A DNA stretch of 64,000 nucleotides from the human T2T-CHM13v2.0 reference genome, Homo sapiens: assembly GCF_009914755.1 (NCBI RefSeq), contig NC_060948.1; one strand, written 5' to 3'. Made by a program: the position numbers and the translations under genes. Under the pieces are notes generated by a model. That model was not told the origin of the DNA and ran no database searches. It was given only the letters and a program-made list of their open reading frames with translations. Positions 7,645 through 13,560 of the stretch are shown one piece after another (position 1 is the stretch's first letter; every line of letters begins with the position of its first letter).

Positions 7645-10600
7645 AGGATTATCTAATCATACTGTGGACTATTGCCAAATCTGCAGCAGTGAAACTCTGG
7701 ACACATTCTGTGTCTGGTAAAGTCACACTTTGGAACCAAGAAGAATTTCCAGCCTTACTTCCCTTGACAGAGCCTATCGCTAAGACAGTCACAACATAGA
7801 TCCAGGATAGAATTCCAACAATAAATCCCTGAGCAAAAACTATAGCTGAAACTGCCATACCATGGATCCTCGATGAAATGCCACCAACAAATCCCTGGAA
7901 AAAATACAGCCTGAATATTTAGCAGTAAATACCTGGCACTATCTGAATTTAACCCAGTCTCATTGTGGATCTTGGCTTATTTGTCAGTAGGAAACTACTC
8001 TACACAGTTCCATACTGAAACAATAACACTGTGAACCCACGTTGAGTCTCCAGCAATACTTTCCTGGAAACAGTTGGGAACTGATATAATCACATTAGGG
8101 ACCCATGCTGAATCACTAGTGATGAATTCATGGATATATTCTTCTATATGTGATACGGTCACAACACCTATCCAGGCTGAATCAGTTATTAAATCACTGG
8201 ACATACTCTGAAACTGATATACTCACAACATGGATTCTGGCTGAAACTCTAGGATTAAGTCCCTGGGCACGTGATATGTTCCTACCATGGACCCAGGCTG
8301 AAAGTCCAGCAGTATCTTGGATTCAACCATGGATTCTGGGTAGAATGCCAGCAATGAATCCCTGGAGAGAGGCTACAGCTGACATTGTCCTACCCTGGAA
8401 CCAGGCTGAATTTATGTAGAAGGAAATGCCTGGACACCGTCTGAAACTTATACAATCACAAAGAGGATCCTGAGTGATTCTCCAGCACTAAATTCATGGA
8501 CATGGGCAATAGCTGATGCAGACCAGCTGTGGACCAAACCTGAATTTCCAGCAGTAAATCCCTGGACAAAGTCTGTAGTTGATAGTACTATACCATGGAT
8601 ACAGGATGAGTCTCCAGCAATAAATCCATGGACACAGTACGTATCTTATATGATCAAACCATGAGCCCAAAATGACTCTTCAGCAGTAAATCTCTGTACA
8701 CTACCTGAATCTGATACCATTATCCTGTGGACACAAGCTGAGTCTCCAACAGTAAATCCGTTCACAGAGGCTGGAACTTCCACAGTCACACCATGGGCCC
8801 AGGCTGTATCTCCAGCAGTAATTCCACGGACACAGCCTATACTTTCCACAGTCGTACCTTGGACCCAGGTTGAATGTCCATCAGTAAATACCTGGAGAAC
8901 GTCCATAGCTGATGCCATCACACTGTGGATAGGGGCTGAATTAACCGCAGGATATCAATGGATACTGCCTTGGGCTGCTACTGTCACACTGTGGTCACAG
9001 TCTGAATCTCCAGCAGGAAATCTTTGGACACAGTCTGTGTATGACACAGACACACCATGGCCTCAGGCTGAATCTCCAGCAGTAGTTTGCTGGACAGAAC
9101 ATGTAGCTGATACACACCGTGGACTCAGTTTGAATTTTTAACAGTAAAGCCTTGGATCCAATCTGTATCTGATACGCTCATACCATGGACCCAGGCTGAG
9201 TCTTCAGCACTAAAGCATTTGACACAGGCAATAGCTTATACAATCAAGCTGTGGAACCAAGTCAAATCACCTGCCATAAATCTCTGGAAACAATATGAAA
9301 CGAATATGTTCACATGGTGTACTGAGGTTGAATCTCCAAAAGTAAAGGAGGGGACACATCCTATACCTGCTACAGTTATACCACTGAACCAAGCTGAATC
9401 TGTAGGAGTAAATCCCTCCACAAAGCTTGAAACAGAAATACTCATACTGTGGACCCAGGCTCATTCTAAAATCAACAATCTCTGTACATATACTCTACTT
9501 GATAGAGTGAAACCATTGGCTAAGGATGTTTGTGTAGCAGTAAACCCATGGAGACAGTCTAAAACTGAAATAGTCACATCATGGGCCCAGGATCTGTTGC
9601 CAGCAATAAATCCCTTAACAGTGGCTGTACCTGGTATAGTCACACTGCAGTACATGGCTGTATCTCTAGTAATAATTCCCAGGAGAGAGGCTCTAGCTGA
9701 TACAGTCATAATATGGACACAGACAAAATCACCAGCAATCAGTTTCTGGTTGTAACCTCTGCCTGGCACAGTCAAACTATGGACCCAAGCAAAATATACA
9801 CCCGTTATCACTTGGAACCAGGCTGAATTTCCAGCTAGAAATCCCATGATACAATCTTAGCCTCCAATTGTAAAGATCTGAACAGAGTCTGAATCTCTAG
9901 CCCCAAGTCCTCTGTTATAGGTGGAGACTGATACAGTCATACCATGGACCCAGACTGAATCTTTGGCAGTAAATCCCTGGACAAAGCCTGTTGCTGATAC
10001 ACTCACACTGTGTACACAGCCTGTAACTCCATCATTAATCGTTTTTTCACAAACTTTTCATGATACACTGAAAGCATGGGCTCAAACTGAATGCTTACCA
10101 GTAAATACCTGGACAGAGGCTGTAGCTTCCAAAATTATACCCTGGACCCAGGCTGAATTTCCAGCAGTAAATCCTTAGACAGAGCCTTTTGCTCATACGG
10201 TAACAATTTTGGCACAGGCTGTATCTTCAACAGTAAAGATCTGGCCACAGCCTTCATTTAATACAACCAACTTATGTATTTAATACAACCAATCTGAATC
10301 TGCAGCATTAATTACATGGATACAGCCTGCATCTGATACATACATAGGATTGATCCAATCTGAATCTTCACCAGTGAATTCCTGGAGACTGCCTATATCT
10401 AATATATTATCATTGTGGACCAAGCCTGTATCTCTAGCAGTCAATCTGTGAATAGAGGCAATAGCTTCCATAGTCATACCTTGGACCAAAGCTTTACTTT
10501 TAGAAACAAAACCCTGGACACATCCTGTATCTGATATACTTATGCTGTGGACCCAGGTTGAATCTTCTGCAGCGATTACCTCCACACAGGCAGTATCTGA

Positions 10601-10970
10601 CACAATTATACTGTGGCTGCATGCTGCAGGCCTCCAGTAGGAATTACCTGGATACAGACTGATCTGATCTTCTTATATCTTCTTATATCATGAAACAATG
10701 ATGAATCTCAACAGAAAATTCAGGGGCATGGGCTGTAGTTTCCACCGTGTTACCATGCAACCAGTTATCCCTTCAGCAGGAAAAACCTGGACATCTACCT
10801 GTGTCAGAATCAATCACCCCGCAGACCCAGTCTGAGTCTCCAGTAATGAACACATGGACAGAGGCTGCAGCTTCCACACTCTCAAAGTGGACTCATGATG
10901 ATTTTCCAGATGCAAATGCTTATACACAGAGCGAAATGGGCACATACTGGACAATGGGTAAAACTGAAGC
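7645..10970 (+). repeat. Degenerate 33-bp tandem array with 66-bp higher-order period (PWTQAESPAVN / PWTQPVADTVI)
   Basis: Recurrent ccatggacccaggctgaatctccagcagtaaat alternating with ccctggacacagcctgtagctgatacagtcata-like units, e.g. 8790-8895 and 9940-10010. Confidence 0.9.
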
Positions 10971-10975
10971 TAAGA

Positions 10976-11290
10976 GGCTGGGCGCAGTGGCTCACACCTG
11001 TAATCCCAGCACTTTGGGAGGCAGAGGCGGGCGGATCACGAGGTCAGGAGATCGAGACCATCCTGGCTAACCCAGTGAAACCCCATCTCTACTAAAAATA
11101 CAAAAAATTAGCTGGGCGTGGTGGCAGGCACCTGTAGTCCCAGCTACTCGGGAGGCTGAGGCAGGAGTATGGCCTGAACCCAGAAGGCGGAGCTTGCAGT
11201 GAACCGAGATTGTGCCACTGCACTCCAGCCTGGGTGACAGAGCGAGACTCAATCTCAAAAAAAAAAAAAAAAAAAAAAAAAAAAAAAACA
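10976..11290 (+). mobile_element. Full-length AluY inserted in the giant exon
   Basis: gggcggatcacgaggtcaggagatcgagaccatcctggctaac and ggcggagcttgcagtg diagnostics; long A-tail; TSD tgaagctaaga at 10965-10975 and 11292-11302. Confidence 0.92.
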
Positions 11291-11302
11291 ATGAAGCTAA
11301 GA

Positions 11303-13560
11303 AACTCTGAACAATGCCTGAAGCTAAAATATTTAGAGTTTCATTACCACCTCAACCTGATACTCATGACCTGTGATTCATGAAGAAAATCAAGCATCTA
11401 TTTTATGGACACATCATGAAATTGAAAATATCAATGAATGGACGTTGTCTGAATTTGGAACACTTATATCTTGGACAGTGCTTGTACCACAAGCAGCAGA
11501 ACCATGGCCCCAGCCTGAAGCTCTGCTTAGCACACCTTTGTTTAAAACTGGATCAGAAGAAAATGAAACCTTGGGCTCAACCAGAATTTCAAACACTGAG
11601 CACATTTACTCCATTTGGACCTGGTAAACTAGAATCCTGGGCCAAACATAATACTACTACATTGAAAACAAGGATCTAATCCGAAACTGATGTCTTCTAC
11701 CCGTGCACCCAATCTGAAGTAGGTACAATGAGATCCCAGACCATTTCTGAAGAAGATACAGTAAAACTATGGAACTGGACTGAAGCAGGCACAATCCACC
11801 CCTGGACTCAACCTAAAACTAATACAATCAGACTTTTGACTCATGTGAATTTCAAGCAGTCAGACCCTGGACCCTGTCCTTGTCTGATACACTGTTGTAT
11901 CAGGCTGAAATGCAAGCTGCAAAATGCTTGACCATGCCTGACATTAATACTGTGAGTTCTTGGTTTCAGACTCAAAACAATGTAAGAATAAATGTTACTC
12001 AACCTCATTCTCGAGCAGGTACTACCTGGATGCAGCCAGAATGGCAAATAATCCACCCATGGAACCAATCTGAAAAGAATGCAGTCAGACCCTGGACCCA
12101 GTCTGAAGGTGATGTTCTGCAACCTTGGATCTATGCTGAAAGCAATACAGTCAGACTCTGGGCCCATTCTGAAACTGATAAAATAAAACAATATACTGAG
12201 CCTGAATCTCAAGCAATTAGGATGTGGCCTGAAGAGGATATGTTCGCACTTTGGTCCCCAACACAAAACGATGCAGTTTGGCCATGGACCCAAGTGGAAT
12301 CACAAATGACCCACTCCTGGACCCAGAATCAACTTAGTATAAATTACCCTTGGACTCAGCATGTACCTGCTGCAATCAGACCATGGACTTACTCTGAAAT
12401 TCAACCCTGCACCCACCCTGAAGCCAATACAGTGATAAGATACTGGTTCCAGACTCAAATGAGTTCATTAAATCCTGGGACCAACCTGAAACTGAAGTAT
12501 TCCAAATTTGGACTGTAAGCCAAGTAATAAAACCCCAAAACTTCATTGAAATTGATACAGTCACATCTTGCTTACAGACTCAGTGTGATACAATTAGACC
12601 CTAGGTTCATCCTGAAAGTCAGCCACTCTCTCCTTGGCCCCACACTGAAGCTGGTGTCAGGCCTCTGAGCCCAAGCTAAGCCATCATATCCCTTGTGACC
12701 TGCACGTGTACATCCAGATGGCCTGTAGCAACTGAAGATCTACAAAAGAAGTGAAAATAGCCTTAACTGATGACATTCCACCATTGTGAGTTGTTTCTGC
12801 CCCACTCTAACTGATCAATGTAATTTGTAATCTCCCCCACCCTTAAGAAGGTTCTTTATAATCTCCCTCACCCTTAAGAAGGTTCTTTGTTATTCTCCCC
12901 ACCCTTGAGAATGTACTTTGTGAGATCCACCCCCTGTCCCCAAAACATTGCTCTTAACTCCACTGCCTATCCCAAAACATATAAGAACCAATGATAATCC
13001 CACCACCCTTTGCTGACTCTCTTTTTGGACTCAGCCTGCCTGCCACCAGCTGAAATAAACAGCCATGTTGCTCACACAAAGCCTGTTTGGGGGTCTCTTC
13101 ACACGGACACGTGAGACAGTTTGTATATTTCAGCCCTGGACTCAGCAAAGAGTTACTACAAATCGTTCGTGGACCCACCCTGAAACCCAAGCAGAGAGAC
13201 TCTGGATCAAGCAGGAAACTGAAGATAGAGACAGATCTTCGTTTTACATTCAAATGAATAAAGGCAGACCATGGGTTTATTTGAAATATCAAATAGTCGG
13301 CGCCTGGATCCAGCCTGAACTTGATGTAATTCACTCTTTTATCCAGTCTGAAACCTTCCTATTAAGATTCTGGCCCAAGGTTCTATCTCCAGTAGTCAAA
13401 CCATGGATCTTGCTTAAAGGAAGAACACTCATATCTTGGATACTGCCTGTAACCCGAGCAGACACTGGATCCAGTCTGAAGTTCATCTTATTGAATCCTT
13501 CGGTGTTTTTAAAGCCGGCAAAGTGAGAACCTGGATCCAGCCTGAAACAGAAATACTAAG
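11303..13560 (+). repeat. Second 33-bp sub-array (PWTQPETNTIR-like units) within the giant exon
   Basis: ORF 11880-12518 reads ...HPWNQSEKNAVRPWTQSEGDVLQPWIYAESNTVRLWAHSETD... with W every 11 residues. Confidence 0.85.
12655..13118 (+). mobile_element. Solo LTR7-family (HERV-H) LTR
   Basis: Starts tgtcaggcctctgagcccaagctaagccatcatatcc; internal ctccccacccttaagaaggttcttt repeats; aataaa at 13054-13059; ends gtctcttcacacggacacgtgagaca; degenerate 5-bp TSD gctgg/gtttg. Confidence 0.9.

What the first reader, a model, noticed from the sequence alone, without database searches (positions are those of the whole stretch)
7645..13560. Trp-every-11-residues coding repeat with two distinct sub-arrays
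The 33-bp unit keeps P-W-T-Q-x-E over roughly 150 degenerate copies (estimated from length). The 5' part alternates two units with a 66-bp period (PWTQAESPAVN/PWTQPVADTVI). The 3' part is a single-unit PWTQPETNTIR type. The codon-multiple period and conserved Trp suggest protein-level constraint rather than a neutral minisatellite. A Trp-ladder solenoid or stiff glycosylated stalk is a hypothesis; I recognise no named domain.
Basis: partly seen in the sequence, partly recalled or inferred. Interest (0 to 1): 0.75.

Follow-up and report, generated by a model that had tools for sequence, protein, structure and literature searches.

The report
Dead copy of sperm gene PRSSLY
This repeat is the broken giant exon of an unlabelled human Y-chromosome copy of PRSSLY, a testis gene that is intact in many other placental mammals, where the tryptophan-every-11-residues stretch likely serves as a long spacer on the sperm surface; in humans this copy cannot encode the protein.

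Summary
The repeat is real: 140 units of 33 bp, alternating (66-bp period) in the 5' part and single-unit in the 3' part. It is the decayed giant exon of a PRSSLY (protease, serine-like, Y) pseudogene. It aligns colinearly with slow-loris PRSSLY (52% over 1718 residues). Eight trypsin-like exons follow at 15.0-21.1 kb, 59-66% identical to a protein named PRSSLY in the six long matches. This copy has stops, 16 frameshift steps, an Alu, a solo LTR and a 9.5-kb deletion.

Human PRSSLY pseudogenes are published (Hughes 2022), and a repeat array was noted in the dog orthologue (Li 2013). Not found in the papers I could search: the Trp-11/22 period, present in 10 of 10 placental and 0 of 17 other orthologues; at least 13 human Y copies (the published model is a different one); and PRSSLY's last two exons recurring at about 20.3-kb spacing beside TSPY.

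Coding origin is supported. Present constraint is not, and Trp-specific selection is not shown. A solenoid is untested because both folds failed. An extended glycosylated spacer is the likeliest role. Ordinary, with modest side findings.

The parts
7055..7189 (+). Remnant exon of the N-terminal trypsin-like domain of PRSSLY
   Evidence: tblastn with woodrat orthologue P0030 residues 137-181, 53-55% identity, E 2e-10
7383..7645 (+). Old Alu-like element at the edge of a ~9.5-kb deletion that removed an intron and the first ~2.5 kb of the giant exon
   Evidence: 67% to the Alu at 10985; window 7639 and 7657 map to chrY 10,253,445 and 10,243,972 in the more complete copy, where the giant exon starts near 10,246,520
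7656..14340 (+). Remnant of the giant coding exon of PRSSLY (repeat array plus linker), broken
   Evidence: Frameshift-aware alignment to loris P0029 residues 909-2817: 1718 aligned residues, 52% identity, 10 stops among aligned codons, 16 frameshift steps
7656..10975 (+). 5' sub-array of alternating 33-bp units (66-bp period), degenerate after ~10640
10976..11291 (+). Alu insertion with poly-A tail and target-site duplication; absent from the diverged copies that span this site
   Evidence: sequence, flanks, contiguous coordinates in L012, L015, L020; Alu family name from recall
11305..13561 (+). 3' sub-array, single 33-bp unit type
12655..13118 (+). Solo LTR inserted in the 3' sub-array; absent from the diverged copies
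   Evidence: dispersed repeat: 2899 candidates, 40 scored, 92-94% on many chromosomes; contiguous in L010, L012, L013, L016, L018, L020; LTR7/HERV-H family name is recalled, not tested
13562..14340 (+). Non-repeat Ser/Cys/Pro-rich linker ending the giant exon
   Evidence: 44-56% to bat P0001 residues 666-963
15025..15191 (+). Trypsin-like domain 1, first exon
   Evidence: Pfam Trypsin E 3.3e-5; 66-71% to orthologues
15746..16003 (+). Trypsin-like domain 1, second exon, with a frameshift near 15950
16175..16306 (+). Trypsin-like domain 1, third exon
16427..16722 (+). Trypsin-like domain 1, last exon and linker, with two in-frame stops
18174..18302 (+). Trypsin-like domain 2, first exon
   Evidence: Pfam Trypsin E 2.3e-9; 69-81% to orthologues
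18667..18913 (+). Trypsin-like domain 2, second exon
   Evidence: 59-70%
20180..20309 (+). Trypsin-like domain 2, third exon, with a frameshift
   Evidence: two frames
20851..21110 (+). Last exon, ending in a hydrophobic tail
   Evidence: 62-71%
22719..24568 (-). TSPY-like remnant lying tail to tail with the PRSSLY copy; not in the supplied gene table
   Evidence: weak tblastn hits with the NAP-domain part of loris P0029, best E 5e-4; 76-79% DNA identity to a second remnant at 48486-51098 that matches at E 3e-11

Best explanation
The repeat is the broken giant coding exon of one of at least 13 PRSSLY pseudogene copies on the human Y chromosome, and in intact placental orthologues it likely forms an extended, probably glycosylated spacer on the sperm surface between a predicted N-terminal trypsin-like domain and two predicted inactive, likely membrane-anchored trypsin-like domains. 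Shown here: homology, exon order, breakage, copy number, insertions, deletion, and absence of the catalytic residues of domain 1. Inferred: the array grew by tandem duplication of a 33-bp, then a 66-bp unit in the placental lineage while the frame was kept open, and Trp persisted partly because two of the three transitions of TGG are stops. Also inferred: in simians the gene was copied several times together with neighbouring TSPY, and each copy decayed on its own; this copy then gained an Alu and an LTR and was quadruplicated with its amplicon. The human copy has no protein function.
For: The repeat ORF alone retrieves 1 protein among 968 candidates, a bat protein with trypsin domains; its protease part retrieves a protein named PRSSLY at 74%. 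All parts of it map to the window in order on one strand. The paper's human and chimpanzee models match window 7660-7836 (read by eye). Trp lag 11 or 22 is the top lag in 10 of 10 placental orthologues and reaches at most 2 pairs at lag 11 in 17 marsupial, monotreme, lizard and salamander homologues, several of which carry unrelated S/T/P-rich repeats in the same slot. Repeat composition: S+T+P 30-32%, Cys 0.5% or less, net negative. Domain 1 has R, G, L in place of catalytic H, D, S; GD[L/V]G in 16 of 17 orthologues examined. Hydrophobic C-termini; the paralogue PRSS55 is GPI-anchored (abstract of PMC6208766). Inter-copy dN/dS 0.56-1.16 against 0.48-1.06 simulated neutral, and no stop or frameshift common to all copies.
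Against: The spacer role rests on composition, position and analogy; no localisation, glycosylation or structure was seen. S+T+P of 30% is low for a true mucin and 6% Trp is atypical. Both AlphaFold jobs failed, the first even on the trypsin domains. Hughes et al. report low-level transcription of the human pseudogene loci, so an RNA role is not excluded. The inter-copy test covers only loris residues 1970-3233, so a shared early lesion elsewhere is not excluded. I set aside pairs with the 8.55-Mb copy (short, poorly aligned, 0.54-0.91) and the near-identical 10.24/5.92 pair (0.36).
Confidence: 0.9

Rival explanations
1. Same gene, but in intact orthologues the repeat folds as a regular solenoid or rod with stacked Trp.
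For: Strict 11/22 period kept across primates, bats, moles, ruminants and rodents; Trp is the best-kept residue (77% against 41-53% overall); hydrophobic columns at positions 1, 2 and 10; many indels against loris are 33 or 66 bp or multiples of 3.
Against: Trp not significantly above Gln (p=0.08); Ka/Ks near one in the upstream ORF (PMC9178871); Pro 7-9%; length and sequence of this slot vary freely and non-placental homologues use other repeats.
Confidence: 0.15
2. A neutral minisatellite whose 33-bp period is a codon multiple by chance.
For: No codon-position bias among units; no long ORF.
Against: Stop depletion in one frame only; colinear with intact proteins and continuous with protease exons.
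Confidence: 0.01
3. This human copy has a present function as a testis non-coding RNA or short peptide.
For: Human pseudogene loci are transcribed at low level (PMC9178871 text and supplement 3); four copies are 99.8-100% identical; the LTR could supply a promoter.
Against: Near identity is expected for amplicon copies (established knowledge of Y gene conversion); neutral-range dN/dS; the 5' end is missing in this copy; supplement 3 says 'no ORF in any transcript'.
Confidence: 0.05

Closest known systems
PRSSLY / dog DYNG (Hughes et al. 2022, PMC9178871; Li et al. 2013, PMC3759724)
   Same: Y-linked, giant upstream exon, trypsin-like exons in the same order, pseudogene in simians; Li et al. 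note an ~1300-residue 'array of divergent repeats' in the dog protein.
   Different: This is not the locus modelled for human: the model's first 24 bases match only chrY 10,244,169-192 and differ from the window at 23 of 177 bases (by eye). This copy lacks the 5' end and carries two insertions. Neither passage read gives the 11/22-residue Trp period.
PRSS55 and other GPI-anchored testis serine proteases
   Same: Closest paralogue according to Hughes et al.; trypsin fold; PRSSLY also ends in a hydrophobic tail.
   Different: PRSSLY has several trypsin-like domains (Pfam counts 2-3 stretches), lacks the catalytic residues in domain 1, and carries a stalk of up to ~2000 residues.
Mucin-type PTS stalks encoded by one giant exon (MUC16 is the paper's size comparison)
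   Same: One giant exon, tandem repeat, fast evolution, S/T/P-rich, nearly no Cys.
   Different: S+T+P only 30-32%, 6% Trp in fixed period; glycosylation not shown.
Unrelated proteins with Trp every 11 residues (unnamed hits P0119, P0128, P0171, P0084)
   Same: Lag-11 Trp pattern scores weakly on the profile (E about 1e-7 to 5e-5).
   Different: 17-25% identity to the orthologues, no match to the window, different residue pattern; they look like tape-measure-type helical repeats (my reading, untested). No sign of homology.

Membership tests
PRSSLY gene family | Conserved trypsin-like region orthologous to PRSSLY, in several exons | tested here: met
   Eight exons in order; 59-66% and 69% to Peromyscus PRSSLY P0005 in the long exon matches, 66-81% to bat, mole, sheep; best PDB relatives of P0005 reach only E 6e-23
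PRSSLY gene family | Very long upstream reading frame in one exon | tested here: met
   7656-14340 colinear with loris residues 909-2817 with no intron-sized gap other than the Alu and LTR; broken in this copy
PRSSLY gene family | Y-linked, no X copy in placental mammals | tested here: met
   Every listed match is on the Y contig; only best candidates are scored, so weak X remnants are not excluded
PRSSLY gene family | Testis-specific, post-meiotic expression | not testable with these tools
   Literature only (PMC9178871)
PRSSLY gene family | Intact open frame (functional gene rather than pseudogene) | tested here: not met
   Stops, frameshifts, insertions, deletion; filed as a pseudogene copy
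Active trypsin-type (S1A) protease | His-Asp-Ser triad with GDSGGP motif | tested here: not met
   Domain 1: R, G, L at the three sites. Domain 2 keeps TAAHC in placentals but reads PGSAVMC where GDSGGP is expected (placement by eye). The N-terminal domain was not aligned.
Solenoid / aromatic-ladder repeat protein | Regular fold with stacked repeats | tested here: inconclusive
   pLDDT 24.5 (1109 aa, 6 rows) and 30.8 (121 aa, 19 overlapping rows); Atlas best score 0.75, below its lead level
Mucin-type stalk | S/T/P-rich, Cys-free tandem repeat | tested here: inconclusive
   S+T+P 30-32%, Cys 0.1-0.5% in 4 orthologues
Mucin-type stalk | Dense O-glycosylation, extracellular location | not testable with these tools
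   Needs protein work
Minisatellite / VNTR | High unit-to-unit identity, no coding signal | tested here: not met
   Unit identity 43-56%, missed by TRF, frame-specific stop depletion

The most novel reading that the evidence does not exclude
The Trp-11/22 repeat is an undescribed regular rod fold that arose in placental mammals as PRSSLY became Y-linked and spermatid-specific, displaying inactive protease domains on sperm; and simians amplified a PRSSLY-TSPY cassette while PRSSLY was still intact, then lost every copy, leaving its 3' end as a fixed part of each TSPY array unit. I put the cassette history alone at about 0.6 and the regular fold at about 0.15.
Probability: 0.12. Interest if true: 0.6.

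Novelty: new member of a known kind. Interest (0 to 1): 0.27.

Why it matters
Mainly an annotation gap: a 15-kb pseudogene with no row in the supplied RefSeq table, one of at least 13 copies. For Y-chromosome specialists, the copies and the PRSSLY tail beside TSPY give markers for dating amplicon growth and the simian loss of an ancestral Y gene. The placental-only Trp period gives a first handle on a region called domain-less. The stakes are modest: mouse mutants are fertile, with a mild sex-ratio skew in one study (PMC9178871) and none in a later knockout screen (PMC7617377).

Tried and rejected
Tandem Repeats Finder: array not detected. Pfam on four repeat ORFs: only sub-threshold hits. Codon-position information and unit-to-unit pN/pS: flat or saturated. 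Two AlphaFold jobs: no usable model, so no fold search was run. Atlas: the window ORF could not be read; the sheep repeat gave no hit above 0.75. Profile search of 1.84 billion proteins: 236 hits, 150 listed; the profile also took in trypsin columns. I inspected 57 of the 150, chosen as repeat-region or strong hits: mostly PRSSLY-like, the rest low-complexity or unrelated lag-11 repeats. Pfam on 17 minus-strand ORFs of the TSPY-like stretch: no hit; the TSPY call rests on tblastn. PDB search at E 1e-25: none. Link to FAM197Y: not established; searches gave nothing on it, and coordinates in PMC13639308 could not be tied to this assembly. PMC9476217 and PMC4260969 were not held; the Li 2013 supplement with the DYNG figure could not be read and may describe the repeat unit.
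Full report
Observation. The periodicity is real. Base autocorrelation peaks at 66, 132, 198 and 33 bp in 7645-10640 and at 33 bp in the two 3' pieces, with nothing similar in two flanks. An iterated weight matrix tiles 144 units, 134 at 8 bits or more, against 0 to the left and 10 in 50 kb to the right. Of 140 units outside the insertions, 89 have Trp and 10 a stop at position 2. The 5' units split into PWTQAESPAVN and PWTQPVADTVT types that mostly alternate; the 3' consensus is PWTQPETQTIR.

Coding signal. Stops number 16 of 1540 codons in register, 103 and 134 in the other plus frames, 45-88 in minus frames, and 44.6 +/- 4.5 after column shuffling. 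The register switches frame 13 times.

Identity. I recalled PRSSLY as a lead and tested it. Two plus-strand ORFs downstream hit Pfam Trypsin, of 54 scanned. The repeat ORF 9111-9752 retrieved one protein, a 1513-residue bat protein with trypsin domains. Its protease part retrieved 28 and 5 proteins in two length classes, including one named PRSSLY at 74% and two named Y-linked serine-like protease-like. These map to the window in order: repeat, linker, eight protease exons, and one upstream exon at 7055-7189. A frameshift-aware alignment to the slow-loris protein covers residues 909-2817 at 52% over 1718 residues, with 10 stops and 16 frameshift steps; off-register matches give mostly 22-36%. 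The protease exons hold two stops and two frameshifts.

Literature. Hughes et al. 2022 (PMC9178871; read: parts 1-3 of 5 of the text, first part of the references, word search, and parts or searches of supplements 1, 2, 3, 5, 6 and 9, with sequences cut at 400 bases; figures not held) describe PRSSLY as Y-linked, testis-specific, with a giant exon of 'no identifiable domains' and Ka/Ks near one. They list it as a low-transcribed pseudogene in human, chimpanzee, gorilla, orangutan, rhesus and marmoset. Their main text has no hit for periodic, repetitive or motif, and 'repeat' occurs only as a verb or adverb. Li et al. 2013 (PMC3759724; one passage) say the dog protein has an ~1300-residue array of divergent repeats; their supplement could not be read. 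Subrini et al. (PMC7617377; four passages; author name recalled) found no effect of Prssly deletion on fertility or sex ratio. The bull paper PMC7706723 has no hit for the gene name in its text. PRSS55: abstract only. Searches showed no paper on the Trp period, the human copy number or a TSPY link; subscription papers and two cited papers were out of reach, so this is weak evidence of novelty.

Copies. Searches of the window's own genome returned matches only on the Y contig (best candidates only). Four copies are 99.8-100% identical (26.92, 25.30, 23.47 Mb plus strand; 22.79 Mb minus), likely the four 'blue' AZF amplicons (recalled). Nine more are 78-92% identical (22.33, 10.24, 10.16, 9.96, 8.55, 7.35, 6.18, 5.97, 5.92 Mb), some partial, and there are fragments. 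The published human model starts at 10,244,192, so the window is a paralogue. Against that copy the window lacks about 9.5 kb between 7639 and 7657; the Alu and LTR are absent from the diverged copies that span those sites. In loris residues 1970-3233 no stop or frameshift is shared by all of the 9 copies aligned, and pairwise dN/dS is 0.56-1.16 leaving out pairs with the 8.55-Mb copy and one near-identical pair; neutral simulation gives 5-95% ranges of 0.48-1.06. The copies have decayed neutrally and, as far as tested, separately. The last two exons recur at 82% identity in 28 of 40 scored matches, spaced at multiples of about 20.3 kb across 8.96-9.81 Mb; the one unit examined also holds a TSPY-like gene. 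The loris gene model is fused to a NAP-domain (TSPY-type) frame, so the two genes are neighbours there too.

How the intact protein likely works. Trp lag 11 or 22 is the top lag in 10 of 10 placental orthologues and absent in 17 others, some of which carry different low-complexity repeats in the same slot; six multi-protease proteins that are not orthologues were left out of that count. The repeat is 30-32% S+T+P, nearly Cys-free and acidic. Domain 1 lacks all three catalytic residues, and domain 2 appears to lack the serine. Most models end in a hydrophobic tail, and the platypus and devil models begin with a signal-like segment. I infer a membrane-anchored pseudo-protease whose repeat acts as an extended spacer of loosely constrained sequence. 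Trp is kept best (77%), but not significantly more than Gln (p=0.08), and purging of nonsense changes explains part of it. A regular fold is not excluded: both predictions failed for lack of alignment depth. The 0.9 confidence is for the identity and the dead state; the spacer role I put at about 0.65.

Verdict. A correctly spotted fossil coding repeat that belongs to a known gene. Interest 0.27.

Noticed in passing
window 19956-21525; G000:C24 8.96-9.81 Mb; L022: The last two PRSSLY exons recur at 82% identity at multiples of about 20.3 kb, next to TSPY-like sequence: likely one in each unit of the TSPY array. Relation to FAM197Y untested.
   Followed up: partly
window 22719-24568 and 48486-51098, minus strand: Two TSPY-like remnants, 76-79% alike, with no row in the supplied gene table.
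   Followed up: partly
P0029 residues 3370-3873: The slow-loris gene model joins PRSSLY to a NAP-domain (TSPY-type) frame, probably a mis-fused prediction of neighbouring genes.
   Followed up: partly
G000:C24:22329986-22331623 and 5974372-5975703 / 10155809-10157140: Other human copies show stop-free frames of 571 and 592 codons in the repeat region, much longer than any in this copy.
   Followed up: no
G000:C24 22,321,495-22,327,634; 9,962,939-9,964,901; 8,549,328-8,550,440: Other copies carry their own insertions of about 6.1, 2.0 and 1.1 kb inside the array.
   Followed up: no
P0008, P0009, P0015, P0022, P0025: Non-placental homologues have independent repeats of period 10/15, 9/18 or 12 in the same slot; the Tasmanian devil one is also Trp-bearing.
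   Followed up: partly
P0031, P0032: Rat and field-mouse PRSSLY orthologues are labelled Tmprss9l1 and Serine protease 55 by their sources.
   Followed up: no
window 4906-4965 and 54281-54340: Two perfect 30-bp tandem duplications.
   Followed up: no
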